DNA of 63,702 nucleotides, counting the filler, from Parasitella parasitica NRRL 2501 (taxonomy: Eukaryota > Fungi > Mucoromycota): assembly GCA_025201805.1 (NCBI GenBank). It is 8 parts of 8 records of this genome, joined end to end, with 100 filler letters (N's around TTAATTAATTAA, not from the genome) between each part and the next. Parts side by side here need not be neighbours in the genome. Positions count along the whole stretch, not along the records: positions 42,982 to 47,237 come from MU619364.1; positions 47,338 to 57,307 come from MU619404.1; 6 more parts are not named here. The stretch is one strand, 5' to 3'. The stretch's first letter is position 1. The number at the start of each line of letters is the position of its first letter. The translations under genes were made by a program, and so were the position numbers. The notes under the pieces were generated by a model. That model was not told where the DNA came from. It worked only from the letters and a program-made list of their open reading frames with translations, and ran no database searches. Of this stretch, positions 1 through 62,348 are shown in pieces.

Positions 1-749
1 AAGTCATATAAATCAAATCGAATTACAAATACAATTTAAGACCTTATCAATGAATGTCGTGTGAAGGAAAACACTCCTGATCAAAGTGCTTTCCCTTACA
101 CAATAGACATTCAGAATAAGAATAATAATGACAAAATATCAATTATGGCCGCTCGTCATTCAACGAGTTTTTCCCATCACTCTAGATAAGGATATCTTTA
201 ACAGAATAACTAAAGTGTGACGATAGCATAGCCATCCGAACACGGCCAGCCAATGTTACGCAAATCTCCATCAATGGTGAAGCATTCAGCATAATCTGCT
301 TCTCCTTAAAACCTAAAATTAAACAACGCATTGACTCCAGGATCAATGCTTCATTCATGAGAAGAACTGATATACAACAATTCAAATCCTATAAATACTA
401 AGATGTTTTTCTCTAGATAAAACCTCAGTATACTTTTACAATAAAGAACCCCAAACTTGATTATAATTGTTATGTCAAAAGTCTGATAAAATAAATCTGC
501 CAAGAATTACACTTTTATTCATAATACATCTCTCAATGTATTAAATACACATTCATTACACTAGGGTTCTACTGTTTAGCCGCATAATGTAAATCATGAC
601 TACCCATGATTTACTGTAAGACCATGCTGGGACTGATCTGAGATCCTGATGTGAGACCTTGCCATGTTATTGATATAACAATAATTGTAATTTCATATCG
701 CTTTTATTTTTACTTTTTTTTATTTCGTAAATCTTTCAAAGTTACTGCA
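1..749. mobile_element. LTR-type repeat (family C), cut by window start
   Basis: 1-327 is the reverse complement of 44024-44327. The end at 710-749 (...tttcgtaaatctttcaaagttactgca) is the reverse complement of 43777-43813, where the same element is TG..CA bounded with a 5-bp TSD. Confidence 0.8.
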
Positions 750-2029
750 ATATCATGAAAGGTTATGTAGGTAGTAGATAAAATCCGATTCTTTATTGAC
801 TAGATATATATGAATAAGTTCTTTTATTATCCCAAATCGTTATAATATTTCAAAAGGATTGATGTGAACTACTGGCAGTCTTTCACACATCTTATTTGAA
901 TTAGTAAGACATTTCTTTATTAAGAACCGTGTCCTTGAGAACAACATTGAACATGACAAATATCATCATTAACATTCCACATATAAAGACAATTGTACAC
1001 CTTTGTACTCCTTATAAACCACGATCGTTACTGCTTTCCCATGAAGCCTAAATTAGAGACAATCCAGTTACTGCATTAGTAACATGAAATATACAGATTA
1101 TATTTTATATAAATACACATCCAAGATCTTTCAACTTGATGGATCTTGGCTTACATTTTTTAACTTTGAATAAATATCGAAGAGTTGTAATTCTATATCC
1201 TTTCCACTTTTTTATTACATTTTTTTTATCGCAAGGATAACTGGTATTATATGAGCTTGATTCAGGAAGGTTAAGAATCTTTTGATACGAGTATTGGGCC
1301 TTATATCTCATTAACAGTCTGATTGTTTCATATTTGATAATACGAGGTAAAAGGAAATTCGTGGCGTAACATTGGAATATTAACCTTTCAACAACGAAAA
1401 GACGAGAAACTTTTTTTTTTACATCGAAGAAGTAAATGCAGATCTACAAACGTTTATTAATGCTGACGGGCATTGTCAACTTGATGGAGTACATTGACAG
1501 CATTTAACGTCGGCTAGATGGAAGGTACAGATAACTCGAACCAAATTTTCAAACGTAGTTGATTAAAGAACTGTAGATCATCTCCTAATGCTGCTTTGAT
1601 GAATCACGAAGGACGGTACCAAAAGATCCCAGGCCTTCTATATCCCCGATATTTCAGAAAAGATGTGGAATTACTGATTACAACTGATACACGTTTTGCG
1701 AGATACATAAAAAAGAACAAGACGCAGTAATTTCATAATTGATAAGATTGTTATCAATCATAAAACCGCTTATGCGATTTATGAGATAAAACGTTTTTAT
1801 TATTTCATGATGATCACCTTAATGGTGCAGGGTAATAGTCGTCCTAAAAACAAAGAAGGAAACGTTGAGAACTATAACGTTAATTATTCGGTTTTATAAA
1901 AAACATGCTTCATAGTTGCAGCAAAAGGTACTTTCCCTCCCGCCCTCCCGATCTACTTTTTCAATTATCTCTTTCTACACCGCCGTCTTCCTCTTCCTCC
2001 TCCTTTTCTTCCTTCTCTTCCTCTCCCTC

Positions 2030-36728: not shown

Positions 36729-39700
36729 TTATTGACTATTCAAGGAAGAAGCCTCTTTTTGTGCAATAGACTTTTCTTGATCAGTTAGACCTTGCCACCA
36801 GTGTTGATTCAACCATTGATTCCATTTGCTATTTGAAGTCAATGTAGCTGCTTCTATCGATGATTTTGGTTTATGACGAACAAATGCATCCTCAGTTCCA
36901 ATAATATAAAACATGTGATAAGTATCACGGCAAATTTTGTATTGCATGCCAGAACGAACAGCAATATCTTTTGCTTGATGCCCTTTATACTTGAGATTTC
37001 TACGCAAAGCAACTTAATTTAAATCATTCAAAAATATTTTATGTGATATATACCTCTTCAAAAATCTTGGTGTCAAAGATCCTTGGCTTATTCCCTTTGT
37101 TTCATTTGCCCAGTCGATATAATTTGCAACATATTCTTCGTATCCACCGCAACCTTCATTATCTTGAGAAGGCTGAGTATCATCTAGCAGTTTAATAGCC
37201 AATGTGCGACTATAAAGTTTCTTAAATACAAAATCAGATCGAGCCACATTGGTTTTTTCAAGTACACTTACAAAAGTGATATGATATGTATTTTCTGTTG
37301 GTTCAATGATACCAGCGATACGGGTCCTATATGTAACAGCATCACCTTGATCTAACTGCTCTGTCTTATTTTCAATTTTGAATAATTCAAATAATTCTTG
37401 TGATTGATTATCTGCAATGATAATGTGAATCTTACATGAAGGTTAGTATTTACTTGATGCCTTTCTTACCCAGTATACTTACGTCGCGCACCAGAGACAA
37501 AACCAATTTATCAATCGTAAACACAGCGTAAGCATCACCACCAAAAATGTAACGAACACACTCTTCGAATGTTTGCTGATCTATCTCCCCTTCAAATAAT
37601 TTGTCAATCAATGATAGTAAGATGTTATAATATCCACGCTTTGTATCCATTTTTAATGCTATGTAGAGTTGATACATTAGTTGAAACGTTGGATTGGATA
37701 ACCAGTAAATACCTTTAAACCTTTTAGGTGTAATCCCTAAGTCACGAGCGTCTTTGTGGGCTTTCTTCGCTTTTTCTGGATTTTCTCGTAATTCTGTATC
37801 TAAGGCTTTCATTTTACAGAGGCGACTGTATAGAGTTTGGTATAGGCGAAAAAAACAATAGAATCCACTATCACCGTAAAAGTTGTATATCTTTTGATTC
37901 TCTGGTTCAGCAGATTTGTCTTTTTCGATCAATGATGACAACGATGCTAGCTTTACAGATGCCGGTGATGATACTTGCGCCTTCTTTTTATTTGTGCGTT
38001 GGGATTTCTTCGACTTGCGTTGGCTACTGCTACTATTCAAACTTCTTGCAGCACGACGGCGTGGGCGACGAGAACGCTCATTTGTTTCCTCTTCATCTTC
38101 ATCATCATCTTCATTTTCTTCTAAATCTTCCAAATCTTCCAGATCTTCATCCTCGGTATTGTTATTGGTTTGCGATGATTCATCATCATCCTCGTCTTCA
38201 TCCTCGTCGTCTTCATCTTCTTCTTCAGATGAACTTGGGGAACGGCCTGAGGGTTTTCTCGTCTTGATATTTCTAGTCAAAACGTCCCTTAATAAGCCGT
38301 CATCATCATTCATCTGACCTCGCGCTCTTCTAGGACGTCTACTAGCTGCTTGAGCTACATTCGTTGACATAACTTTTATATCGTTATCTGATTGCACCGA
38401 TGAAACATCGTCATCTAAAATATCTTCCATAATGATATCACCACTCTCCACTGTAGACGGTTCGACATCCGTAACGTTGAAAAACAGAGGAATTATCGTA
38501 TCCATAAATGCGCGCATGGCGGTACAATCTTCTGGGTTGTATATTGGTTGACGATCCAAATAAAAATATACGAGCCTTGAAACATCTTTGAAAACAGCAG
38601 CATCGGCAAACTCGAACTGAACTTTTGTGTGTAATTCTTTGGCAGCGACTGCTTCAGCTACCAAAGATCGTGTGGTCATTGCCTTTCTGTCGGTAATTTT
38701 GAACGTAATGCCTTGATAATCTAATGATTTCCAATAATTTTTTGCTTCAACTTCTCTCCATATTTTATTCCATTCACGTTGAGCACGTTTCCATTCATCG
38801 TCCTTCTGCTTGAGACGTTTCAAAACGATGGGAACAGTCTGGGCAGGGTTATTGTGTAACAAATCGATTATTTCTAATCCCTTGTTGGCATAGATTTTCT
38901 TCATAATGCGCTGATAAATGGTTCGTGATGGGCTACCCAAGCCAGGTGATAAACGGAAGCTAGTCTTTTCATCTGCTGACATAATACTAATTTTTTTAGC
39001 AATAGGCTCCAAGAGAGCAATTGTATTGAGATTGGCTTCGATATTAAGATCGTAATCATAGCGCTCTTCTTCGACACGATGCAATGCTTCCTCGTATTGA
39101 TTTTTCTTTGAGGCGACATAACCAGTGTCTTCAGAGGCCCAAGTTGGATGAGAAATATAAGTATCATTCAATACATCCCAACACAGAGCATCCCTTCCAG
39201 AACAAGTGCGGTTTTGCCAAGCTTTAGAGACATGGCGGTAACTAGGTCCACAGCCACCAGCGTTTTTTGTTACAGGTTGCATTCGTGGCATGTTCTCAGT
39301 GACTTGGTCAGTACCATCATAACCTACCAGACTCTTGAACCACTCAAATAAGTCTGGGTTTCCACCAATGAAGCTTTCTACACGGCTAACTAGCACGTTC
39401 TGATCGACGATTTGTTGACTGAATAGATTCAGTACCTTGAGAAATGCACTGTATGTAGCTTTATTGCCAATATAGGTTTTGACTTTTTCGAAAAACTCGG
39501 CCTCTTCTGCTGAAAATGTTGGTCGTGAAAGATCGTCGTTCAAAGCCGATAAATTTTCACAGCTGTTCGATGAATCTGCTCTAACATTAGATGTTTGTAA
39601 ATCTGGTTTATGGTGATGTTTAGTTCTCTAACAGAAATACGAACTTGTTAAATCATTTTGTGGCATATTTTTCACAATTGTTTACCTTGGAAATACCAAA

Positions 39701-40720
39701 ATTCGGTATATGGCCAGATCTTTTTTTCCTTTGCTGAGGTTCAGGTAAAAATTGCTTAAATTCTTCTAACAATTCATTTGAACCATCAAAGAGTGCTTGG
39801 ACTTCGATGTATACCTAATATAAAATATCAAGACTGTTGAAGATCAAGTTCACAAGTCTATATGCAGCTTACCTCGCCAATTGGTTTTTGATCTTTTTGA
39901 TATGTTTGCAAAATTTCTAAAAATTTCTTGTACGTATCAGGTTGACCTGAAAATCGATTCTTTATCTTATTGACGTAGGCGATAGCATGATTAAATTCAA
40001 CGGGAGCTTTGCGATCTTCTTGCTGCTGGAGATTATCATCGCTTCTCAAGTTGAGAGATTCACTTTCTGTGATAGAAGTTGTGCCAGTGGGCGTTGTAAC
40101 TTTAATGATGTTTCTTTCCTGTTCATCTATACTACATTCAATACGATAACCGGGAGGTAAAAAGGTATTGAAGCCAGAAATCAATGCAGGATGGCCTCGA
40201 AATAATGTTGAAACACGCTCAATAACACCAGGAGTATCAACCCTAATACGATATTTTAATTTATAAGCTTTCTTGAAATTTGAAAATGAACCTGCTTACA
40301 TTTGACTTTTAAAGTCTTTCATTATATCCAAAAATTGATTGTACACATCATTTTGAAATGAGAATTTGGCTTTCACTGTATCAAGATACGTAAGTGCATC
40401 TTTGACGTTGAGAGAACGATACTCTTTTGCAGCTGCTGGTTGTGTTTGCTTTTCCCCAGCTGCATCAATAGGTGTCGTCGAACAGCTGATTTCTTTATCT
40501 GCTTCTGTGGATGCTTCTGAGAGCAGATTTCCCTGTTTGTCTTTTCCATGGTGATTTTCATCTTGAGGTTCTTGTTTAACAACTGAACTTGTTGTATTGT
40601 TTACTTGAGGGTGACTATATTCATGATAGGTCAGTAAACAGGCTATACACATTTTTTCTTTCAATTGTGAATCTTAACAAAGAGTACTTGCCTCGCTCCG
40701 TCAGACTTTTCTATTGGCAT
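36729..40720 (-). CDS. SIN3: Sin3 corepressor (PAH1-3, HDAC-interaction domain, C-terminal domain), multi-exon
   Basis: LNVKDALTYLDTVK, PVEFNHAIAYVNKIKNRF, CGPSYR, CSGRDALCWDVLND, KNQYEEALHRVEEERY and FTIDKL. Confidence 0.93.
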
Positions 40721-42404
40721 TTTTTTTGCTTTTTTATTTCTAGTACGAAGGCTGATGGTGTTATTTTGTCAATCCAAGCCTATAACATTCAATATACGCG
40801 TTATAAAATGAACAAAACAAAAGAGAAAGCAACAGAATAGAAAGGGGAAATTTCATCAAAGTACTGAGTGACCTGTAGATACTCCGATCAGTGACCAGCA
40901 TGATCTAGTAAACCCCAACAACATGCAAACCCCTTTGTTGATAATCAAGACCAAAAAAGACGCCACAAAGAAGGGGAGGGAATAGATGTGTTGAAGATTT
41001 AATTAAGAAATAATGTCCAGTCAATTATTGATGCCCTCAAGTTGCAAGATCATTTCTCAAACGTTATTTAATGGTATTTTCTGTCAGGGACTAACTTCTA
41101 TACAAATGGACACACCTGAAATGAAGTAGAATAGCTCGGTATAATTCTTGACGATCAAAGACAAGACGCTGCAAAATTCAAAGAAAGGAATGCAAGCTAG
41201 TCTCCCAGGTCTTATGCTGAAAAAAGACATTTGTATTTTGGATTAACTGTAGTATCAAGCTATTTACAAAGCATATAAAAAAAAGGCCCTGTCAGGGTTG
41301 GAATCTTTGTCATAAATGGAGGAGGATGAATTATTAGTATCATTAATTTTGCTTCTGAGCTGTCTCGAAATACTTTTTCAGGCTAAGGCTTTATAATCGA
41401 TTTCATCCTGAGCATAACAGCTATACTCTGTCTTTTCAATTTATATCTGTCTTCTTCGACGCACGTTCAACTGGTACTAAGATTACAATTAAATAAATCA
41501 TATTGATGCAGGCTTTTCTTGCATTTTGGCAACGTTCCTGTCCAAATATAAGGGTGTTAACAAGCCATGCTTTGACATCCAGAGTCTCATCATTCAAGTA
41601 GATTTAAAGCATATAACAACGTTATAATATCTAGATACAACACATTTGATGTACAATGAAGTTTTGATTTCATGAATATAGATAGTATCAACTATTCAAA
41701 AAAAAACTTTCGTTAGTGAATATATAAAAAATCATAAAACAAAGCTCTAAATTTCATCAACTGCGCCACACTTGATCAGAGCGACTTCTTCATTAAGTTT
41801 TATTTTTTGGATGATAATGTGATATTTCTATTACCTTCACTTCGCTATTACGGTATAAAGAAATACTGTAGTACCTTTTGGGCCGTAGATTTTGTTAAAG
41901 ACGCCACATCCAAATTCAGATGTATATATCAACATACCCCGGTGTCATCAATTCATCTAATACAGTCAGGCTGGGAAATATTGGCCGATTTGGAAAACTA
42001 AATGGTGATTATAGACACTAGCCAAAAAATAATTTGGCGAAAAGATAAAAAGTGATTGGCCCAATTCAAATCTTTTGTTCAAGACGCTTCTTCTTCAACA
42101 GAATCAAATTCTTACTGCTCGAAAAGACTCAAAATAGGCACATCATTATACTTATCGAAAAGAAACAGCCAGTACAATATCGCTCAGGCAGGATCAGACA
42201 TATCGACGCTTTATTTCGTTTTAATTGCTATTAAAGAGTATCAATGAGATTCAAGTTCTTCATACAAATATTTTTAATAAATCAGTCATTTTCAATAAAT
42301 CAATTATTGTAGAAGAAACAATTGTTGTCCATAATTCAATTGATCTGCATAAAATATAATTCATCACTTTTCTTTCCCTCTTTTTACATTGATTCTCCCA
42401 ACAC

Positions 42405-42881
42405 ATGTCTGAAGCTACGTTCAAATCAATCATCTTGGAGAAGAAACGCCAAGTGTTTGAAAGTCGTAAAGCAAATGCATTTGAAGGTATGAAATAAGTT
42501 AGTTATCTTTTACATTGGGATTCATATAGTAAACTTTAAAGATGCAATATGTGTTGGTTGTTCAAAAAGTGGTCATTACACAAAAGCTTACTTCAAGTGT
42601 AAGTTGTATGTTGCAGACACAGCAAATGCTGGTAAATAACTACAAAGCAAAATGTTGAGAAGTGTCTTTATAATGTAAACATGTTTTCTTTATGTATCTG
42701 TAGTTGGCTCAAGTAGCGGGAAAAAGCGAAAGCAAACCTATGAAGATAGAGCACAAAAGCGGCAAGCCAAAAGACAAAAAGATCAAGTTGAGGGCGATGT
42801 TGCTATTTGTTCTAAATGCAAGCAAAGAGGACACAGATCTGCACGTTCTCCCTTGTGCCCGCAAGGTATCTTGTCAAAAGC
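42405..42881 (+). CDS. 5' part of a transposon-type protein with two CCHC-like zinc knuckles, truncated by contig end
   Basis: Short exons encode CVGCSKSGHYTKAYFKC and CSKCKQRGHRSARSPLCP. Confidence 0.55.
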
Positions 42882-43573
42882 NNNNNNNNNNNNNNNNNNN
42901 NNNNNNNNNNNNNNNNNNNNNNNNNTTAATTAATTAANNNNNNNNNNNNNNNNNNNNNNNNNNNNNNNNNNNNNNNNNNNNAAAACATTGATGAGGTGAG
43001 CCATCTAGATTTTTTCAATGGTTATGATTTCCTAATGTAGTTTATCATAATAGATTGTCGAAGAAGAGACAATCCAAAATAAAAAATATCAAGTAATTAA
43101 AGATTTCGAAGGCCTCTCTGTTGACACTGAACACAACGTCATTTCCAATAATAGCGAAAATGAGGTACTACACCAACTTATAATATGACTGAGTTAGCAA
43201 CCTGGTACATTGTTAATTTTAGGCTGACAAGGTGTTGTCGACAACCAAGCTGAATTAATAAATGAAGGTGATCGATTAGAGAATAACGAAGAAGCAATAG
43301 TCGATGAGCTTACTGAAGAGCAATTTCACTTAATTGAAAATCAAATCTCGGAGATTCCTGAAAATGGATGGCTTGACAAGTATCTTGGGTCAATTCAAGA
43401 GAGCTCAAAGGTGGTGCCGAACCTGATGAATACAAGAAGGGTACACTATGGATTAATTCTTCTAATGCATCTCTCGTATTAAAGAGAAAATTGGATCCTG
43501 AATTGCTTTACCTGGCTAGAGTATGCATATGACTTCCGCAATTTCCGGCCAAGACGCCCTTAAAATGCCCAAC

Positions 43574-44536
43574 TGATTTATCAGAATGAGAAATTATTCA
43601 AATAAAACGTTTGTGAATTAATCAGGTAAAGATCTCGTTTATTACATGGAAAAAATGATGGTTTATATACTAGTGAATCTAAGTGGACTGATAGAAGGAT
43701 AAGATACAAGTGTGAGACATGGTGTGATTTAGAGAATGGAACGATAGATCGTATCTATTGTCCATGAACATGTCATTGCAGTAAATTTAAAAGATTTACG
43801 AAATAAAAAAAAANNNNNNNNNNNNNNNNNNNNNNNNNNNNNNNNNNNNNNNNNNNNNNNNNNNNNNNNNNNNNNNNNNNNNNNNNNNNNNNNNNNNNNN
43901 NNNNNNNNNNNNNNNNNNNNNNNNNNNNNNNNNNNNNNNNNNNNNNNNNNNNNNNNNNNNNNNNNNNNNNNNNNNNNNNNNNNNNNNNNNNNNNNNNNNN
44001 NNNGTTGTTTAATTTTAGGTTTTAAGGAGAAGCAAATTATGCTGAATGCTTTCACCATTGATGGAGATTTGCGTAACATTGGTTGGCCGTGTTAGGATGG
44101 CTATCGTCATACTTTAGTTATTCTGTTAAAGATATCCTTGTCTAGAATGATGGGAAAAACTCATGGAATGACGAGCTGCCATAATTGATATCTTTGTCAT
44201 TATTATTCTTATTCTGAATGTCTATTGTGTTAAGGAAAGCACTTTGATCAGGAGTGTTTTCCTTCACACGACATTCATTGATAAGGTCTTAAATTGTATT
44301 TGTAATTCGATTTGATTTATATGACTTAATATGTTATGCGAACTCGAATGGCAAAAATTAACTATGCGTGACATTTGAGTCTTATTTTTTTTAGTTACTT
44401 GCTTTTAGTTATACCATTCCATTGCAGTCATGTTGAGTTATAAATAAGAAACATGATCCATTGGGATATGTTCCTGAATTGTGTTCAGGATTGAGTTTAC
44501 TTGAGTTTGACTTCCGGTTGGGAAATTGACACATCA
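43574..44536 (-). mobile_element. Solo LTR (family B) with CCAAC TSD
   Basis: TGAT...ATCA termini with ccaac at 43569-43573 and 44537-44541. Uninterrupted copy at 57432-57741. Confidence 0.9.
43777..44426. mobile_element. Nested solo LTR (family C) with GTCAT TSD
   Basis: TGCA...TGCA termini with gtcat at 43772-43776 and 44427-44431. Homologous to 1-749. Confidence 0.88.
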
Positions 44537-47500
44537 CCAACTTGTCAAAAGTCCTTTCTCGCTAAAGAATGGGTACAAAAGACAAAGGCTAGAAGAATCA
44601 TCGATTTGGAAGAGTAAGTCAAACAAATATATATTTACAATTTTAATTTAAAACTTCTACTACTAGATGCATTGACGAATGTCTTTTTTAGCTGCTTCTA
44701 TCTTTTAAGTGTTAGATTCAAATGTACCAACAAGACAAACGTACATACATACTTTCATGGGATATCGATTTGAAATCATAAAAAAATTGCCTGCGCATGT
44801 TCGAGCTGATTTCCCCGCTGTGTTGACACATCGCTCCGGGTTTTCTACACAGCTCGTGAGATTGTTGCGCCCAGAGTTCCAAAACGCAACTGGCACACAT
44901 AGAATGCACCAAATTTGAAGGATAAACCATACAGAAAGATTTGATACAATTCAGTTCCAGTACTATGATGCTGTAAAAGACAAGCTATTAGAGAACAATT
45001 CAAGGCCAAAGCATTAATCGGCAACTCATCACCCGCAACAGTATATCCGAAATTATCATCATTTGGTGACAAGAATGGGTATTATGGATATGTACCTTCA
45101 GCAAATTATTTAAGTCATGTATACTGCTCTATTATAGCCGAACTAAGATCTTACATGGACCAGCATGCTTCATTTAGACGGTGTCGTCCTAATAAAAGAA
45201 GACCATTCTTTTAAGGTATGCTATATTGTACATCACACATAAAATTGCGGTACTCAATTTTTGAACTATAGATCATTGATCATATGGCCAAAATAAATGG
45301 CGTATCTACGTTTTCCTGTCTCTACACTGTATTGAACGAGCATCAAGAAATTCGTCTTCAAGTGCTCGCGCCCACTAAATCGTTGGATCATCTGGCCTAT
45401 TCTTTTAACAATATGATGGAAAGCTACACCAGATATGGATTTCAGATGCCTGAGGTTTTTTACACAGACAATGTGATTGGAGATAGATTGTTCCTGGAGT
45501 CTGCTATCCCTTCATTAAAAAAGGATGTTGTCCATACCAAGCCCACTCTTGCGGAACAGATCAATACAAATTGCCCATCCCAGAATTTTCCTTTGGCTGA
45601 ATTACCTGGTAATATTGCTGTTTCTGTGTTAGATACGAGTGATGCTATAAACCATGCTTGTCAGAAGCTTCTCGATTTTTGTTTTAGGGCAGTATTGCAA
45701 TTGGATTTGACTGCGAGTGGGCTGTTCGAGGAGGAAGGTCTGCTGTGCCTATAAGTGAACAAGCAAGACTAAGATTTGTGCCTGTTGCTTTAGTTCAAAT
45801 TGCTTACCAAGATTTAATCTATTTAATGAGGATACATACATTTGATCATGACAAGCTACCAAAACAATTAAGTGAACTGATTGTCAACCCGAAGATTCTT
45901 AAAATTGGAAAGAATGTAAACGGCGATCTTTCAAGGTTCAAGTACTTTGGTATTAATTACTTTCCCGGTCAATTGAAGCTCGGTACCTTTTGCAAGGATA
46001 AGAACCTAATTGAAAGAAGAGGCTCTTCACTTGCTGAGATTTGTGGGTTTGTTTTGAAAGTACAATTGCCCAAAACAAATTTGATTCGCTGCGGTAACTG
46101 GGAGGCACAGGCTCTAAATGAGGAACAAATCAATTATGCTGCTCTGGACGCCTGGGTCTCTTTAGAAATCTACAACAGGTTCAAATCAATGCCTACAGTC
46201 CACCAAAAGGTATCGGGAAAAACAAGAGCTGGCTCCTTTGTCGCAGTTCATCTTGAAAATACTGCTAAATCATCAGTTGCTGCCTTGGGATTTCTATGTG
46301 ACAATGATTCATCAATTTCTGATGAACAATACGAAGCAGCTGATACGCACGGCGCTGTAAAGATGAAGGTAGTCAAGACTATGATTCCTGGTTTTCCGTT
46401 GGATTGTTATGATGGTTTGACCTTGAGTGATTTTACTGGTAATCCATGCACCATGTACATCAAATACAAGTATTTATTTACGGCGTCAGAAAGGGTTTAT
46501 TACTCTGCAACCAAACCAGTCGAACCTACCCAACCTGCCATAACTATTCACAATTCAGATGAAGAAACGCCAATTCCTTCCCGTGTTTTGAAAGATGGCT
46601 TCCATTTAATGGACATGATCAAAATCTCCAAGTCCCATGGAATGCATAAAGATTTTATGAGACGCTTCCGTGATGCCTTATATGTTTGCGATCAAGGTGA
46701 CAAAGCTCTCATCGAAACATTTTTATTGAGCACAGGGACCGACTGGAACACACGGATGCTGTCTAACCCTGCTTGGGTTTTTGAACGAGTCAGAAGATTT
46801 ATACCAAAACCAGCCAAGCTCTAACCCACTCTGAAATTCTTATTTGATAGCTACGGCCCATTAAGATGTGAGCATTCTGGCCGCCAGCTTTTTGATGATG
46901 CAGCTAGGGAAATGTCTTTATATATTCTTAAATCTGTAAAAGAAGGGCATGTTTCTGATATCGTTGGTGGTCCTGCTCTCTACACGGAAAAAGGCCTGGA
47001 TAAGGACGGTTTGATGACCTACAAGTGTTCGCGAGTAACTAGTTCTGTTGAGGGAGCCTGTCATATGAACATTGTTTGCAGGTCGCATCATATAATGCAT
47101 CTACGCAATTAACAGATTCTATTTTGGCTGACTATAGACTATATCATAATATAAACGTAAGTGAATTATCTTTTAGTATGTTTTTTAATTTAAAAACTTT
47201 ACTTTTTTTCTTAGGTCGGGTCTGTTAATCGGTATGGNNNNNNNNNNNNNNNNNNNNNNNNNNNNNNNNNNNNNNNNNNNNTTAATTAATTAANNNNNNN
47301 NNNNNNNNNNNNNNNNNNNNNNNNNNNNNNNNNNNNNATATTTGCTCATAACTTGTGCTAAAATCACCCTAGAACCGAGATCTAACTTGGAAAACTTAGC
47401 ATTGACTTGGCCCTATTTGGAAACAACATTGGTATCCTTGATTTTATTGACATCTATAAAGTTATCAGATGATATCACAAATTTACATATCAGAATTGCA

Positions 47501-49017
47501 TATAATCGATGATAGGCTTCAACAAAGAACAGAATAAACAATGTCTTATGCGCCATAAGAACAGGCATGATCATCGCTATTTGAGCATAACTTAATTTTG
47601 CTTGGGCGACCTGTTTATCAAAAGTTATCCGCAAAAAAATACTTTCGCGTTTTTGTTGTCGGAGTTTGAAATATTTTTATATCACGTGATTGTTTTCATG
47701 CCGGGCCGGGTTCAAAGGATGTAATTTTTGGGATGTTTACTGCAAGAATGCTTTTTTCGACAACCAAATACTAACTGGTAAGCTTGAAGATGCAAGGTTT
47801 GGAGGATTATTGTTAATCTTCATCAATCCTAAAAGTATATATCTCAGCTATCATCATCATTATAAACAGATCTAATGAGTAGTAAAATATGAGATCATGT
47901 AATACATATATTTTATTACGGACGATTAATCAAATGTGATGTATCAATTCTAAAACCGGATGTCAATATAATATAAACTCATAATAAAGAGTAAAACATC
48001 AGATCATAAAATGATATTACATGACATTTGGGATAGATACAATCTACCTTATCTCCTGGATCTCATCACTAAAACCTTTATCCTCACATTGCTTCCCTCA
48101 GTTCATAGAAAGTATATAAACCTCTATTTTTGAATGTAATAAACGGATCTTTACCTGATTAAGTTCTATTGAACTTTTCTGATAAATCAATATGATAAAT
48201 AGCATCGTTTCATTGCAATCATGCACAAAACCACTTTTCATTTTCGTAATTTCAAACATTTGCTCATAACTTATGTTAAAGAATCGGAAAGCCGTGATCG
48301 AACCTGATAAACATTGCGAGAACTCAGCGCGGTGGAATAGAAGCATCTCTATCCGTGAAAATAAAGGTTATCAACAGAACTGATAAAGTGATAAAGACCA
48401 CTAGTTTAACACTAGGGACAAACTAATAATGCTTTTAATCGATAGGAAGTTGCCTATTAAGTAGAATAAATTTTGTCAATGAAGATTAAAACACAGTATT
48501 AGTCAGAGCAAGACCTATTTACCGTATATTTGATCAGGTAATAATCATGAATTTAAATCTTTTGTTAATAAGTTCAGTTTCATAATTTGGAATAAATAGA
48601 ATCCAATTAGATGGTTTCTTATTCAAAATAAAATTCTACATATTATAGAATTACGGGCAATACTTATCCTTAGATCTGACCAGGAACAGCCACGACACTG
48701 AGTTAAAATAATGGTAACCATTGTATTCTATGGAAACAACAGCCACCCGATCTTATTAAATTTAAATAACAATGCCTTCCAAGAAAAACAACCTTTTCGA
48801 ATAAAATTTTTGTTTCTTGAGACAGCTCATATTATCAATAATCTCGCAATCCCTAATTCGTCTCAACTTCATTTGCGAAGTATAGTATATACGGGACTTG
48901 GTCCATAACTTGATCGTATTGAGACTGTATTTGGTGATGCTTGTGACCACTACCAAGCGTCAAAAGAAGAAGAAAAAATATTGCATTTCATTTCCTATCA
49001 CTTGACACTACAAAAAC

Positions 49018-51235
49018 ATGAAGAGAGTTGTAGATTTTCAAGAAAGTGACCCTGCAAATGAAGCAGAATGGCAATTTAAAGACACCAAGACTGAAAATAA
49101 AAAACGAAAGCACAACAAAAAGAATGAAAAATTCAATGCAAAAACCGAGCGTCTTAGCCATGCCGATTTCATAAAAAAAAAAGAAGAGATGTTGGCTTTT
49201 AGAAAACAATTGCCAATCTATGCAGGTAAGGAAAAAATTTTCTTTCATGCTAGTGGATCTAATAATTCATATGCTGTGTTAGGTTGTGATGCTATTATCC
49301 AATGTTTAGAAGAGAACGATACTATCATTGTGATGGGAGAGACCGGATCTGGTAAAACCACTCGTAAGTGCATTGAATGTGTGTTTTACTTGCACGGTTC
49401 TCAAAGAGCTAACGCATGTTTCAGAGATCCCACAGTTTTTAGTAGAAGCAGGGTTAGCATCTAAAGACCTGGGTGGTGTCGCAGTAACCCAGCCTCGTCG
49501 AGTGGCCGCTGTCAATTTAGCCAAGCGTGTAGCGGAGGAAACCATGACAAAATTAGGATCCAAGGTTGGATACACAGTGCGTTTTGACGATACTTCGAGC
49601 CCACAAACCATCATCAAATATCTCACCGATGGTATGCTTCTCAGAGAGATTTTATCAGACGAACTATTGTTGCGTTATAAGGTTATCGTTTTGGATGAAG
49701 CGCACGAGCGCACACTACGAACCGACATGTTATTTGGTATGATTAAAAAGATCCAAAAGATTCGATCAGAAAAGCACGTAGAAGACAAATCAATTCAGCT
49801 TTTAAAAATTGTCATTATGAGCGCAACATTGGATGCCGAAAAGTTTAGTGGATTTTTCAACAATGCAAAGATCCTGTATGTGTCGGGTCGTCTATACCCT
49901 GTGGATACCATGTTTACCGTCGAACCACAAGCAGATTACTTGGACGCCTGTCTGGTGAGCATTTTCCAAATACACATCAATAATCCCAAGGGCGATATTT
50001 TAGTGTTTTTGCCTGGCCAAGATGCTATTGAAAGTTTGACGGCTTTAGTCAGTGAGTATTCTGCTCAATTGCGTCCTCAGCAACAACAACTATTGGCATG
50101 TCCATTATTCGCAGCTCTCCCGCCATCACAGCAACAAAAAGTATTTGACCCTGCTCCTGAAAATACTCGCAAAGTCATCCTGTCGACAAATATCGCAGAG
50201 ACCAGTATCACCATTCCAGGTATCAAGTATGTCATTGATTGTGGGCTTGCCAAGCTTCGAGGATTTAATCCGAAAATCGGTGTTGAGTCATTGCTGCTGC
50301 ATCCGATTTCTAAAAGTTCTGCATGGCAGCGCACAGGTCGTGCTGGTAGAGAAGCCGCGGGAGTGTGCTATCGCCTGTATACTGAGGGAGCATTTAGAGA
50401 GCTCGAAGACGACACTGTACCAGAAATTCGTAGATGCAATTTAGCATCCGCAGTTTTATCACTGAAAGCAACCGGCATCGATAACATCTTGGAGTTCGAT
50501 TACATGGATCGCCCTTCAAGAGCATCGCTAGTACGTGCATTAGAAGAGCTGTATGCCCTGGGTGCTATAGACGACAAGGGCGATCTTTCTGAATTGGGCA
50601 AACAGATGGCTGAATTTCCGCTTGATCCTACTTATTCCAAAGTGCTGATTCAGTCCAAAGAATATGGCTGTTCTTTAGAAGTTATTGCCATCATTTCACT
50701 ATTATCTGTAGATTCTATCTTTTTCACACCATCTGATAAGCGTGAACAAGCTTCCGAGGCCAGAAAAAAGTTCCTACATCCAGATGGCGATCACCTAACG
50801 CTTTTAAACGTGCTCAAGTCGTATTGGGAAGTCAAGGGTGATATCGAATGGTGCAAGGAGAATTTCATCAATAATAGAAATATTAGAATTGCTTTGGAAA
50901 TTCGGGATCAACTGGTGCGTTTTTGCGAACGAATTGACATGAATCACAACAGTTCATGTGGGTCGGATACAGACAGGGTCCTCAAGTGCTTTTTGACTGG
51001 ATTCTTTCAGAACACTGCCTTGTTACAGCCAGATGGATCTTACAAAAGTGTTGCAGGCAGCCAATTAGTGAAAATTCATCCAGGGTCTGCGATGTTTGGT
51101 AAACGTGTTGAAGGCATCTTGTATAACGAATTAGTGTTTACCACAAAGCATTATGTAAGAGGTGTTTCTGCTATACAGTCTGCTTGGCTGCCGTTGGCGG
51201 CACCCAAATATTTTAACAATGTAAAATCAAAATAA
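49018..51235 (+). CDS. DHR2: DEAH-box RNA helicase Dhr2/DHX33-like
   Basis: GETGSGKTT, TQPRRVAA, DEAHER, MSAT, STNIAETSITI and QRTGRAGR, plus HA2/OB-type C-terminus. Confidence 0.88.
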
Positions 51236-57431: not shown

Positions 57432-57741
57432 TGACGTGTCAATTTCCCAACCGGAAGTCAAACTCAAGTAAACTCAATCCTGAACACAATTCAGGAACAT
57501 ATCCCAATGGATCATGTTCCTTATTTATAACTCAACATGACATGTTCATGGATAATAGATACGATCTATATCGTTCCATTCTCTAAATCACACCATGTCT
57601 CACACTTGTATCTTATCCTCCCATCAGTCCACTTAGATTCACTAGTATATAAACCATCATTTTTTCCATCTAATAAACGAGATCTTGACCTGATTAACTC
57701 ACAACCGTTTTATTTGAATAATTTCTCATTCTGATAAATCA
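57432..57741 (+). mobile_element. LTR family B, uninterrupted copy
   Basis: TGACG...AATCA. Reverse complement of 43574-43776 joined to 44432-44536. Confidence 0.85.
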
Positions 57742-57859
57742 ATGTACTTCAATGGAATATTGAAAATGGTCCAATGATGCGATATGATACGCTTGGTAAA
57801 TTGGAGAATAAAGTCTCTGTTTCAAATCAAAAAGGTCACTACTCTAGGATTAGCTAGTA

Positions 57860-58830
57860 GGTATTTACCCAAGACATCATCGCAAAGTTTCTGAAGTGAC
57901 CATTGCTTTAATGAGTCTGTGTGGCCCATTTCCATATATCTACTTCTTCCCAGATCAAGAAAAGCTTTTGGGTGATATCAAGTTTTGTCAACATGGTAAT
58001 CAGCTTCAAGTTTCTGCAAATCTTGTTTGATACAACGTCCCACTTTAATGACATTGGTATCTTCAATCAAGAGCTTCAGCTGACCTGGCATTTGATAGGT
58101 ATTACCAAGATGAAATAGGTATACAGATGTTTTGAATGCAATTTGTATCAATAATGTTTTCTGCCTGAACGAAGCTTTGTTGATATATTTTGTTGTCCAC
58201 TCGCAATCAAAGCCTATGTGTATCGGTATAATGCGACCACTGACATCTGCATTCAAGCAATTAATTAATCTTGAGGCCATCGTATTAATTTGTACAGCAG
58301 ATTGCGGTATATAATGGAACATTATCAGGAAGTGTATAAGCTGGAAGAAGGCCTGAATTGACTCCAAGCTCCTCGTTGGTATGCTGGACGTTTTCTTTCA
58401 ATGATGAAATCCATCGTTCCAGACTTGGCTGATCAGCCACGATATTACCTCAGTGTAGAAAATACGAGGTTTTTCTTCCTCGTTTTTCAAATAAGTCTTC
58501 ATCATCTCTACAGAGCGTTCTTCCAAATGCAGTAGGGACTTTGTTGGGCCAAGAACCATCATAAAAATCTCCTCAAATTCGTTACAAACGGTTCAAAGAG
58601 TTTTGAATATGGAGACACCTTTAAGTTTTGCTATTTTTTTTAATAATTTTGAAGGTGTGATCTCCTTTTGACACAACACCGCCAAGCTTCATCATTTTTG
58701 AATCAATTTTTGCCTTCAGATTTTCCATATATACAAAGTATACACATAACCAATATACACAGCTGAAGGCACACGGCCAGAGTATCCCTTTGAATCTTCA
58801 AATTCTAAAAAATCAGCTGCTGCTTTATAT
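57860..58830 (-). pseudogene. Second, diverged copy of the exonuclease-containing transposase
   Basis: GYSGRVPSA, KGDHTFKIIK, TVCNEFEEI..GPTKSL, IFYT, IHIGFDCEW, LIQIA and KVGRCIKQD. Confidence 0.7.
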
Positions 58831-59562: not shown

Positions 59563-62348
59563 ATGAATCCTGTTAACCCTTCTGCTACTGCTTCTGGTTC
59601 CAACGCTGCTGCTGGACCTTCTTCTGTTACTTCTGCTGGTTCTTCTAACCATTCTGGTAAACAATCTGTTTCTGCTCTTTCTTCTGGTGCTCCTGTTGAT
59701 ATTGGTGGTGCTGATGTGACTCCCGAGTCGTCTACTGCTATGGATATCGATAGCCATCCATTTTCGTCAATTGGAAGTACTGTTGACCCCGACCGTCAAT
59801 TACTTCAATTGAAAGAAAACCTGAACCAGCTTATGGTTCAAGTGACGCTTGCCTCTGCAAAGGTTTCTGCTACAAATGGTGCTGCCCGGCAGTCTGCTGT
59901 TTGTGAGTTGGAATCCTTGTCCAAGTCTGTGGAGAAACTGGTCGTTGTGAGAGACTGTTTGTTGGCATCTAATGCTACTGAACGTCGTCTTAGACCTTCT
60001 CCTGCTAGCTCTGCTAGTGTAGTCTGCCCCAACAATTTGCCTGTGTTTCAATGGGAAGGTGCTGTCTTTGATGCAAAGAGTACCGTTTTCGTTGATGTTG
60101 ATGCTTGTCTGACCAAGTTCGAGGATGTCATGTTTGCATACAACCTGAATTTTGATGCCGAGTATCGTCGTCTGGTTCCGCCTATGCTGTCACCTACTCA
60201 GCGTACGTGGTATCAGTCATTTTTGGCAAATTGTAAGGAGTCTACGTCTTGGATTGCATTCAAAAGTGCCTTCAAGGCTCGTTACGGGTTGAGTGTTCTC
60301 GATGACCGCCAACGTTGTGCATCTGACTTGATGGCAATGGTCTTGGTGCCTGGTGAGTCGATTGAATCGTTCGTTGATCGATTCAATGATTTGCGTCGTC
60401 GATCGCACGATCAAGTCCCGCAGTCTTTCTTGTTGGTAACTCGTTTTATGAATGCTTTGCCGCCCAGTCTTAAAGAAAAGGTGAACCTTACCCGCCATAG
60501 TCGTGGGATTAATGAGGACATTTCAGTAGATAAGATCATTCAGATCACCCGTGATCTTGTTGGATCTATGTCGCCTGCTGAAGTGGCTGACATGATGGTC
60601 AGTAAGTTGTCGCCTCCTGCTGTTGTTTCTGGTTCTTCTGCCTCGAAATGGGCGTCTAAGCCTTTGTCAGAGAAGGCTATCCCGGTTCAAGGTGCTTCTT
60701 TGTCGCGAGTTTCTAAGGCTGTTTCAAAGAAGAAAACCTGCAAGTATCATGAGGGCCGCCCACACAATCATGACACATCTGAATGCAAGAGTTTTCAAGG
60801 CAATGCTCGTGTTGCTGCTGGTAATGCTGCTCCCAAGGGTGATAAGGCGCAATACATTATGTCGCTAAAGGAAGCCCGTGAAACCGATCGTTGCCGCACC
60901 TGTGGGTGGAATAACTTCTCACGTGGCCCCCATGATTGTCCTGGCGCTAGTACGACTGCTGTGCGTACTGGTCCTCCTCCATCTAGCTCTTTGCATCGTT
61001 TTGGTATGATGGATTTGGTTCCTGGTTCTTCTGCTGCTGGTAGTGATGCTACATCGTCTACCCCCGAAACAGGTCGCTACTGTGATTTCCATGGTCGCAA
61101 TACGCATGGCAATCAAGATTGCAAGGTTCTGCAAAAAGTCTCTGCTATGGGCTTCACGCGTGCTGCTTCTTCTTCTTCTTCTTCTGCTTCTTCTTCTGCT
61201 GCTCCATCAGCAACATCTGGTCTTCCCTTGGAAGCTTCTCAGGCTGACTCTGCTGCTGCTACGTTGAATGACAATATCGACAAGTTGAGTGTGCATGATG
61301 ACGCCATGGATATTGACCAGATGGTTGCTATAGAAGCACAAAAATGTAAGATTAATGAATATTCGAATTTGCCTGTTAACAAATCAAACTCACTTCTGAT
61401 ACCCTTAATTGTAGAACAAGTCAAGGTGTATGGTGTTCTTGATACTGGGTGTACTTTTTCCATTTGTGCGCCGCAGTTTGCTGAATCTTTAGGTGTAGCA
61501 ATCAACTATGCTGTGGATGGTAATGTTCAATTGGGACATACGTCTACTTTGCAACCTAGAATTGGCACTTGTTATTTAAAAGTTTTTTACAATAAAAGAT
61601 CTTTTACTCACAAATTCGAGATATTTGATTTCTTTACTGAATCCAATGATTGTCCAATTTTGCTTGGTCTTGACATTATGTCTGATTTGAAAATTGGAAT
61701 CACTGGCTTGACATCATCATGGTTTGAGTACACGGGACCTGAACTGCCGTCTCCTATTGACCCTGATTGTGAGCCTAACAATGATCCCTATGGCACTCCA
61801 TTTGAGCGTGAACAAGCTTTTAAGCCTATTGAAGCGTTGTTAAAAGAAAATGCTGCCATTGATCTTGCGTCGACTTACTGCAATCTTCCAGGCGCGATTG
61901 TTAAGCTGGAAACGATCCCTGGTAAGATTGCTTATCGAGCTCCATATCCAGTTCCTGTTGTCTATAAGGATGCTGTCTTGGCTCAACTTGCTCAATGGGA
62001 AAAAGAGGGTGTTATTGAGCCTAGTCCTAGTCACAATGGTTGGAATCATCCTCTGCTTGTGGTTGCCAAGAAGAATAGTGCAGGTGAATACTCGTTTGAC
62101 AAACCTCGTATTGTTGCCGATGTACGTCTTCTCAACCAGATTTTAGTGAGTACTGATCGCTATCAAATGCCGCGCATTGATGAGATTCACCAAAAGTTCA
62201 GTGCTGCTACTATCACAAGTTGCATTGATGTAAAGAGTTTTTTTACATCGTTTTTAGTCGATTTTAAACACCGCTACAAGTTATCAGTAACTTGTCCGTT
62301 TACTGGCAAGCAATGGTGTTTCCGGAAAATATGTTTTGGTGTTTTTTT
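59563..62348 (+). mobile_element. Ty3/gypsy Gag-protease-RT single ORF, truncated by contig end
   Basis: Gag (WIAFKSAFKARY, ESIESFVDRF), zinc knuckles, protease VLDTGCTFS, RT start (GVIEPS..WNHP, PRIVADVRLLN, IDVKSFF). Confidence 0.92.

What the first reader, a model, noticed from the sequence alone, without database searches (positions are those of the whole stretch)
42982..47237. DDE-like transposase with a 3'-5' exonuclease embedded in its catalytic core
Seen, after repairing disablements: N-terminal CxxC, candidate catalytic D (KEDHSFK) and D (FYTDN), then a complete DEDDy exonuclease (GFDCEW at 45703-45720, KIGKNVNGD, YAALDAW). Transposase-like sequence then resumes with DxxH (KDGFH) and a candidate E (SRVTSSVEG). 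Known: (C/D)xxH between the second D and the E is a signature of MULE/hAT/P-type transposases, and the exonuclease motifs are WRN/EXD-like. Inference: an unclassified mobile family whose insertion domain carries an exonuclease, possibly for end or flap processing or for RNA turnover. I cannot assign it to a named superfamily.
Basis: partly seen in the sequence, partly recalled or inferred. Interest (0 to 1): 0.75.

Follow-up and report, generated by a model that had tools for sequence, protein, structure and literature searches.

The report
Dead Dada transposon with built-in exonuclease
This is a broken copy of a known kind of fungal jumping gene (Dada) whose cutting enzyme carries a predicted DNA-trimming module, a design in print since 2013; its relatives have end repeats and insertion scars that I did not find described for Dada and that hint at a bacterial-style way of jumping.

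Summary
In detail: D, D, a complete WRN-type DEDDy exonuclease, DxxH and E lie in that order. The copy is dead (six frameshifts, three stops, two nested insertions) and its ends fall in assembly gaps. It is not unclassified. Kojima and Jurka (2013) described this architecture for Dada transposons of Laccaria and Ectocarpus, and a protein about 75% identical to the printed Dada-1_LB exonuclease aligns colinearly with the window. Relatives are widespread in Mucorales and Agaricomycetes. The predicted core of a homolog is an RNase H fold closest to ISCth4 (IS256 family). Other runs carry the element without the nested insertions, at about six times single-copy depth. Not found in the papers searched: related elements have GGC-starting terminal inverted repeats; 6 of 9 two-ended copies have exact 8-bp target duplications at unrelated sites, not small-RNA genes; and 3 of 23 testable right ends abut a left end across exactly 6 bp. 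That geometry matches IS256-type copy-out/paste-in transposition (probability about 0.3). This scan filed the same architecture as Dada four times before, in other genomes.

The parts
43270..43568 (+). 5' coding part of the transposase: acidic region and start of the DUF6729 region, up to the first Cys of the CxxC; frameshift near 43401, stop at 43530
   Evidence: tblastn with P0007 and P0009; stop position
43574..44536 (.). Nested insertion, outer element: TG...CA ends, 5-bp duplication CCAAC (43569-43573 and 44537-44541), about 310 bp without the inner element; solo-LTR-like (label inferred)
   Evidence: 95-98% copy at 57432-57741 (-); contigs of runs X1, X2, X6, X7 join 43568 to 44537
43777..44426 (.). 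Nested insertion, inner element: TG...CA ends, 5-bp duplication GTCAT (43772-43776 and 44427-44431); holds a 190-N gap
   Evidence: related copy at 1-757 (-); joint 43771 to 44427 in other runs
44537..45215 (+). Rest of the zinc-finger/DUF6729 region and first catalytic D (KEDHSFK 45195-45215); inferred intron 44614-44691; frameshifts near 44745, 44990 and 45173; stop at 44916
45216..45271 (+). Inferred GT-AG intron directly after D-x-x-x-K; the fish family Dada-5S-A_CaAu has a GT donor at the same place after its D-G-T-K-K
   Evidence: fish DNA read by eye
45272..45687 (+). RNase H core continued, second catalytic D (FYTDN 45458-45472); frameshift near 45685
45700..46188 (+). WRN-type DEDDy 3'-5' exonuclease, all catalytic motifs present
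   Evidence: Pfam PF01612 E 3.1e-14; homolog model matches WRN exonuclease 2e6l, Z 26.2, rmsd 1.7, 184 aligned
46189..46570 (+). Predicted beta-rich domain and linker after the exonuclease; no family assigned
   Evidence: secondary structure of the homolog model; atlas best score 0.76, a lead only
46571..47156 (+). DxxH (KDGFH 46591-46605), helical insertion domain, catalytic E (SRVTSSVEG 47029-47055, the conserved G of R-G-T is V here); stop at 46822, frameshift near 47080
47157..47237 (+). Inferred intron 47157-47214 and start of the next exon; the C-terminal region and the 3' end are lost in the gap
   Evidence: gap list
57840..58826 (-). Second, more decayed fragment of a different family of the same kind (D1 region through the exonuclease), about 30% protein identity to P0007, 41% to P0030

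Best explanation
This is a dead copy of an exonuclease-bearing Dada-type DNA transposon, likely in a Mucorales fungus, whose intact relatives are predicted to bind their terminal inverted repeats, nick the element's 3' ends with a DDE/DxxH RNase H core and paste it into unrelated target sites with an 8-bp stagger, while the inserted WRN-type exonuclease likely trims free 3' ends on the host-DNA side of the reaction. Shown: motif order and conservation, the breaks in this copy, inverted repeats and 8-bp duplications in relatives. Predicted: the fold. Inferred: that this family has the same ends (by its place in the tree), that the exonuclease acts on host-side ends and not on the transferred ends (those ends are exact in the six copies with duplications), and the excision step, for which I give ordinary cut-out 0.5, IS256-like copy-out 0.3, other 0.2. 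The exonuclease is an accessory module: three Apophysomyces gene models lack it.
For: Published architecture (PMC3706591). Bridge to a named family: P0168 matches the printed Dada-1_LB exonuclease at 120 of 161 positions by my hand count, and P0168/P0057 align colinearly with the window from the zinc finger to the E at 26-36% identity, E 2e-50 and 3e-22. Spacing: P0057 Cys at -176, -171, -139, -136 from D1 against -178, -173, -138, -135 in Dada-U6_DR; D1-D2 70 residues in 110 homologs against 68. Fold of homologs: ISCth4 Z 16.2 and Z 13.7, rmsd 3.5, 237 aligned. Termini: 6 of 9 two-ended loci have exact 8-bp duplications, in three families; shuffled flanks gave 8 bp in 1 of 185 trials. Tree of the core without exonuclease: window inside a Mucorales clade (96), sister to a repeat-bearing clade (95); the Dada-1_LB-like rows group with repeat-bearing L002, L003, L005 (97). 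Runs X1, X2, X6 carry the element without the insertion at 5.6-6.4 times the depth of the flanking single-copy gene.
Against: No direct alignment to a named Dada protein was possible (Dataset S1 of the 2013 paper is unreadable here); the link is one bridge and a hand count. The window's own ends are missing and no Mucorales copy with ends was held, so its termini are inferred. 3 of 9 two-ended loci have no duplication (L020, L021, L023). L053, the closest relative of Dada-1_LB, and the GC-rich loci L057, L058, L077 showed no end motif pair. The tree is the quick search only; the careful search did not finish. Contig depth is not a copy number by the tool's own warning. Nothing here tests exonuclease activity or substrate.
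Confidence: 0.85

Rival explanations
1. Same element, but it moves by IS256-type copy-out/paste-in: one end is nicked and attacks the flank 6 bp beyond the other end, giving an end-to-end junction (circle or tandem dimer) that is then opened and integrated with an 8-bp stagger; the exonuclease would help resolve the junction intermediate or the gaps.
For: 3 of 23 testable right ends abut a left end, each across exactly 6 bp (L005, L014, L017, three different families); L017 closes on itself (115-bp overlap) and L005 loops back. ISCth4 has 8-bp duplications, junction spacers of 6-8 bp and integrates best with 6 bp (PMC7780238), and is the nearest solved fold. Published Dada oddities fit: tandem copies separated by 6 bp, apparent 8-bp duplications, one-ended insertions, and a 6-bp flank carried along with the element.
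Against: Only three junctions, all from metagenome assemblies, with no donor site to trace the spacer. Muta1, the eukaryotic kin of IS256, excises by double-strand breaks with flank hairpins (PMC5499845 abstract). No eukaryotic MULE structure appeared in the fold lists, so the ISCth4 rank does not separate the two routes. Insertion 6 bp from an existing end, or repair-made circles after staggered cuts, would give the same junction.
Confidence: 0.3
2. The exonuclease acts on RNA or on host defence (for example degrading small RNAs or DNA intermediates) and has no part in the chemistry of transposition.
For: The fold family includes RNases (EXD2, Mut-7/Nibbler, RNase D, Rrp6). The domain is absent from animal Dada and from three Apophysomyces gene models, so it is dispensable.
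Against: WRN is the best match by sequence (E 2.9e-45 against 6.4e-32 for EXD2) and fold (Z 26.2 against 19.6 for the next). Its place inside the catalytic core, at the start of the insertion domain, would put it next to flanking or target DNA (inference from the ISCth4 description).
Confidence: 0.15
3. A separate superfamily that only shares the exonuclease with Dada, or a domesticated host gene.
For: Relatives differ from the published Dada description in having terminal inverted repeats, 8-bp duplications and no small-RNA targets.
Against: Colinear similarity with Dada-1_LB-like proteins extends over the whole core; motifs and an intron position match a fish Dada; DUF6729 clusters rich in chordates are the nearest atlas hits (0.98, 0.96). 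Multi-copy families with sharp ends and this copy's decay argue against a host gene.
Confidence: 0.05

Closest known systems
Dada-1_LB and Dada-2_LB (Laccaria bicolor) and Dada-1_ES (Ectocarpus), Kojima and Jurka 2013, PMC3706591
   Same: DEDDy exonuclease between the second D and DxxH, all four acidic residues kept; same motif order; introns; close protein bridge through P0168/P0057.
   Different: Mucorales host (inferred); this copy is dead. The paper gives no ends or targets for these families; relatives here have inverted repeats and 8-bp duplications.
Target-specific animal and Perkinsus Dada (Dada-U6, -U1, -tRNA, -5S), PMC3706591 and PMC8869645
   Same: DDE with DxxH, N-terminal Cys cluster at similar spacing, D1-D2 spacing 68 against 70, similar motifs and a shared intron position after D1+4; tandem copies 6 bp apart are reported there too.
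   Different: They have no exonuclease, no terminal inverted repeats, 6-7-bp duplications and small-RNA gene targets; relatives here show 24-32-bp imperfect repeats, 8-bp duplications and six unrelated targets.
ISCth4 / IS256 family, PMC7780238
   Same: Nearest solved fold; C/DxxH at the start of a helical insertion domain; imperfect repeats of about 30 bp; 8-bp duplications; 6-bp end-to-end spacer.
   Different: Bacterial, about 400 residues, no exonuclease, 10-13% identity in the structural alignments; no related locus confirmed in prokaryote or viral collections; copy-out is shown for ISCth4 and untested here.
Eukaryotic MULE (Muta1), hAT (Hermes), P element
   Same: C/DxxH signature, helical insertion domain, long duplications.
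   Different: No Pfam hit to their families at E up to 1; Hermes and P score Z 9.3 and 9.2 with rmsd 5.8; none named here carries this exonuclease.
KolobokD, PMC9587614
   Same: A C/DxxH transposon with a 3'-5' exonuclease, proposed to degrade DNA intermediates.
   Different: DEDDh (TREX/ERI1-like) rather than DEDDy; Kolobok makes TTAA duplications.

Membership tests
Dada, exonuclease-bearing lineage (Dada-1_LB type) | DDE triad in an RNase H fold | tested here: met
   Residues present in the window, conserved; fold predicted for homologs P0002 and P0025, not for the broken copy itself
Dada, exonuclease-bearing lineage (Dada-1_LB type) | DxxH after the second D | tested here: met
   KDGFH 46591-46605; D in 137 of 142, H in 139 of 142 rows
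Dada, exonuclease-bearing lineage (Dada-1_LB type) | DEDDy exonuclease between second D and DxxH, catalytic residues intact | tested here: met
   127 of 131 homologs that span D2 to DxxH carry it
Dada, exonuclease-bearing lineage (Dada-1_LB type) | Sequence similarity of the transposase core to named Dada proteins | tested here: met
   Indirect: P0168 about 75% identical by hand count to the printed Dada-1_LB exonuclease, and colinear with the window beyond it; fish Dada motifs read by eye. A direct alignment was not possible
Dada superfamily | N-terminal CCCC zinc finger | tested here: inconclusive
   Window has CxxC and a third Cys; the fourth is absent in it and in close Mucor homologs; all four at Dada spacing in P0057
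Dada superfamily | C-terminal CCHC zinc finger | tested here: inconclusive
   Lost in the gap in the window; many full-length homologs end in a Cys-rich CxxC cluster that is not exactly CCHC
Target-specific Dada lineages (not filed here) | Insertion inside tRNA, snRNA or 5S genes | tested here: not met
   Relatives only: no tRNA in 6 of 6 rejoined empty sites, one of them with no right flank; no Rfam match in 13 loci. Window: no RNA gene, but its ends are missing
Target-specific Dada lineages (not filed here) | 6-7-bp target duplication | tested here: not met
   Relatives only: 8 bp in 6 of 9, none in 3 of 9. The 2013 paper could not rule out 8 bp
Target-specific Dada lineages (not filed here) | No terminal inverted repeats | tested here: not met
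   Relatives only: repeats of 24-32 bp in 9 two-ended loci; none found in L053, L057, L058, L077
IS256 / MULE | Sequence match to the family's transposase profile | tested here: not met
   No such Pfam family for 3 window segments and 7 homologs at E up to 1; no transposase among 38 PDB sequence hits
IS256 / MULE | RNase H core with C/DxxH helical insertion domain; 8-bp duplication | tested here: met
   works like it, not a member
IS256 family | Copy-out through a figure-eight and circle | not testable with these tools
   Three 6-bp end-to-end junctions are compatible; no biochemical test
KDZ / Zisupton | CxC domains and KDZ transposase profile | tested here: not met
   No Pfam hit; atlas CxC4/5/6 clusters score only 0.80-0.82, below the 0.9 level
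KolobokD | DEDDh exonuclease and TTAA duplication | tested here: not met
   DEDDy here; six different 8-bp duplications in relatives

The most novel reading that the evidence does not exclude
Dada is a eukaryotic copy-out/paste-in transposon superfamily, the functional heir of IS256: fungal members keep IS256-like inverted repeats, 8-bp duplications and 6-bp end-to-end junctions; the small-RNA targeting, one-ended insertions and carried 6-bp flanks of animal Dada derive from the step in which one end attacks at a fixed distance from an end-like sequence; and the inserted exonuclease resolves the intermediate.
Probability: 0.3. Interest if true: 0.75.

Novelty: new member of a known kind. Interest (0 to 1): 0.38.

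Why it matters
The architecture itself is known, so the finding is an annotation: DUF6729 plus DNA_pol_A_exo1 proteins, named '3'-5' exonuclease' or 'hypothetical' in fungal genomes, are Dada transposases. What would matter is the side result. The papers read describe Dada as lacking inverted repeats and bound to small-RNA genes; the fungal relatives here look like ordinary untargeted elements, which offers a starting state for the evolution of targeting. If the 6-bp junctions are true intermediates, a eukaryotic superfamily uses a route so far shown in bacteria, and the unexplained flank replacement in fish Dada gets a mechanism. Natural exonuclease-less variants and near-identical multi-copy families make both questions testable.

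Tried and rejected
No whole genome is held for the window, so copies could not be gathered genome-wide. No terminal repeat pair around the locus in 39500-50000 (25 longest of 190 pairs shown) and no end-profile match above 11 bits in the window. The gene piece at 42301-42881 has no similarity to the held proteins and is not counted as part of the element. The contig after the gap starts in a high-copy repeat, and none of the listed pieces linked it to the element (most records not shown). A relaxed tRNA scan of the 80 loci gave only noise. No RNA holder was listed; X7 is only a guess at RNA, so nothing is said on expression. No related locus was confirmed in viral contigs (0 of 63 candidates) or prokaryote genomes (0 of 56). 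Foldseek on the 811-residue model listed only exonucleases in the rows shown; the core had to be folded alone. The beta-rich domain after the exonuclease found no named family. 'DUF6729' occurs in no paper of the library. KDZ/Zisupton, MULE, hAT, P and Kolobok membership were considered and rejected (see Membership tests). The careful tree did not finish in two runs.
Full report
Observation. The stretch 42982-47237 is one contig between two gap linkers. Alignment to intact homologs shows six frameshifts (near 43401, 44745, 44990, 45173, 45685, 47080), three stops (43530, 44916, 46822), three inferred GT-AG introns, and a 963-bp insertion that splits the CxxC. The insertion is two nested TG...CA elements with 5-bp duplications, each with another copy in the window. 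A second decayed fragment of a different family lies at 57840-58826 on the minus strand.

Relatives. The exonuclease-to-DxxH segment finds 20 longer proteins, all with PF01612 and 11 of 20 also with DUF6729; those with names are from Mucor, Phascolomyces and Fennellomyces, so the host is likely Mucorales (inference). A profile search found 1636 representatives at E up to 1e-30 (that count may include exonuclease-only matches); of 20 looked up, named ones are Agaricomycetes, Mucorales and one chytrid. Among 153 of the 173 proteins then held (600-2100 residues), the DDE, DxxH and DEDDy residues are each kept in 88-98% of rows with a residue. 127 of 131 proteins spanning D2 to DxxH carry the exonuclease; three Apophysomyces gene models lack it cleanly.

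It is Dada. Kojima and Jurka 2013 (PMC3706591; parts 1-3 of 4 of the text and four supplementary figures read) state that Dada from Laccaria and Ectocarpus encode a DEDDy exonuclease between the second D and DxxH and suggest that it processes cleaved 3' ends. I recalled this paper and then read it. Their protein file could not be read, so I used a bridge: P0168 agrees with the printed Dada-1_LB exonuclease at 120 of 161 positions (hand count), and P0168 and P0057 align colinearly with the window outside the exonuclease. Cys spacing in P0057 and D1-D2 spacing match Dada-U6_DR. In the first part of the 2022 dataset (PMC8869645) the fish family Dada-5S-A reads, by eye, I-D-G-T-K-K followed by a GT donor, then V-L-N-E and Y-A-D-N, the same order and intron position as here. 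Muszewska et al. 2017 (PMC5751038, passages) already report Dada in four fungal phyla. Four earlier notes of this scan reach the same label in other genomes; I saw them after forming this reading and they are not evidence.

Fold. A model of homolog P0002 (pLDDT 88) gives WRN exonuclease Z 26.2 and, as best non-exonuclease match, ISCth4 transposase Z 16.2, rmsd 3.5, 266 aligned. The core of the exonuclease-less homolog P0025 (pLDDT 92) ranks ISCth4 first (Z 13.7, rmsd 3.5, 237 aligned), then foamy virus integrase 10.3, Hermes 9.3, P element 9.2; Foldseek agrees (E 1.5e-4). These are models of homologs, not of the broken copy.

Mobility and ends. Contigs of runs X1, X2, X6 match the flanking helicase gene with no differences over 4.2 kb, at depth 148.6, 34.6 and 31.3, and carry the element at 876-957, 201.5 and 174.1, without the nested insertion and with indels at the places of the window's frameshifts (11 further indels and 195 substitutions not shown). 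The ratio of about six suggests several near-identical copies, though the tool warns that depth is not copy number. In metagenome contigs, 80 of 273 related loci were kept; 37 of 80 cover all six catalytic sites. One 5.2-kb family has sharp BLASTN boundaries, found before any end motif was chosen. With a profile trained on those and similar ends, 9 loci have both ends, with imperfect repeats of 24-32 bp starting GGC; 6 of 9 have an exact 8-bp duplication (three families), 3 of 9 have none. Shuffled flanks gave an 8-bp match in 1 of 185 trials. The six duplications are all different, with no tRNA or Rfam match. L053, L057, L058 and L077 showed no end pair. In a quick tree of 65 core sequences (a chosen subset of 42 proteins and 25 loci, less those lacking a segment; exonuclease left out) the window sits in a Mucorales clade (96), sister to a repeat-bearing clade (95), and the Dada-1_LB-like rows group with other repeat-bearing loci (97). 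The window's family therefore likely has such ends; this is inferred.

Junctions. Of 27 right ends, 4 are too near a contig end; 3 of the other 23 abut a left end, each across exactly 6 bp, and two of these contigs loop back on themselves. ISCth4 makes 8-bp duplications and 6-8-bp junction spacers, best at 6 (PMC7780238, passages). The 2013 Dada paper argued for 6-bp duplications from tandem copies 6 bp apart while seeing apparent 8-bp ones, and both Dada papers report a 6-bp flank carried with the element. Against: Muta1 excises by breaks with flank hairpins (PMC5499845, abstract), three junctions are few, and other routes give the same product. A similar likeness to copy-out was noted for KolobokP (PMC9587614, passages).

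Mechanism. Shown: anatomy, decay, ends of relatives. Predicted: fold. Inferred: end binding, 3' nicking and 8-bp staggered integration as in other DDE enzymes; exonuclease acting on host-side 3' ends, because the transferred ends are exact; excision by cut-out 0.5, copy-out 0.3.

Novelty. The architecture is published, so this is a new member of a known kind. Inverted repeats, 8-bp duplications, untargeted insertion and 6-bp junctions for fungal Dada were not found in the searches, nor in the 2022 paper (term search and section 4.2), a 2026 review (passage), the Ectocarpus survey (one table row), the Repbase paper (passages) or the Arkhipova review (no mention). Repbase entries and subscription journals could not be seen and may already record them. 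Names of neighbouring genes (Sin3-like, DEAH helicase, SNF5-like, Ty3/gypsy) are read from the translations by recall and come from no family scan.

Noticed in passing
window 43574-44536, 57432-57741, 1-757: Two high-copy TG...CA repeats with 5-bp duplications, one inside the other; very high depth in other runs. The copy at 57432-57741 lacks a matching duplication.
   Followed up: partly
window 42390-42882 (+): Intron-split gene piece with two zinc-knuckle-like Cys/His motifs, cut by the gap; unrelated to the Dada-type proteins.
   Followed up: partly
window about 59570-62348 (+): Long GC-richer open frame that looks like a Ty3/gypsy gag-protease-RT (read by eye, not scanned).
   Followed up: no
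window 47338-47640: Very high-copy tandem-like repeat of about 290 bp just after the gap.
   Followed up: no
window gaps such as 42882-42981: Gaps are 44 N, a 12-base TTAA linker, 44 N: artificial joins, so contig order across them is not evidence of adjacency.
   Followed up: yes
P0025, P0033, P0035: Apophysomyces proteins in which the second D is only about 12-53 residues from DxxH: exonuclease-less variants, or gene-model artefacts.
   Followed up: partly
L020:173-6003: One copy appears inserted inside another copy of the same group; two right ends in one contig.
   Followed up: partly
L057, L058, L077: GC-rich loci with the full architecture that form a separate long branch and show no end motif of the fungal type.
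   Followed up: partly
P0002 residues about 480-580; window 46189-46570: Conserved predicted beta-rich domain that follows the exonuclease and is lost with it in the Apophysomyces proteins; no family found.
   Followed up: partly
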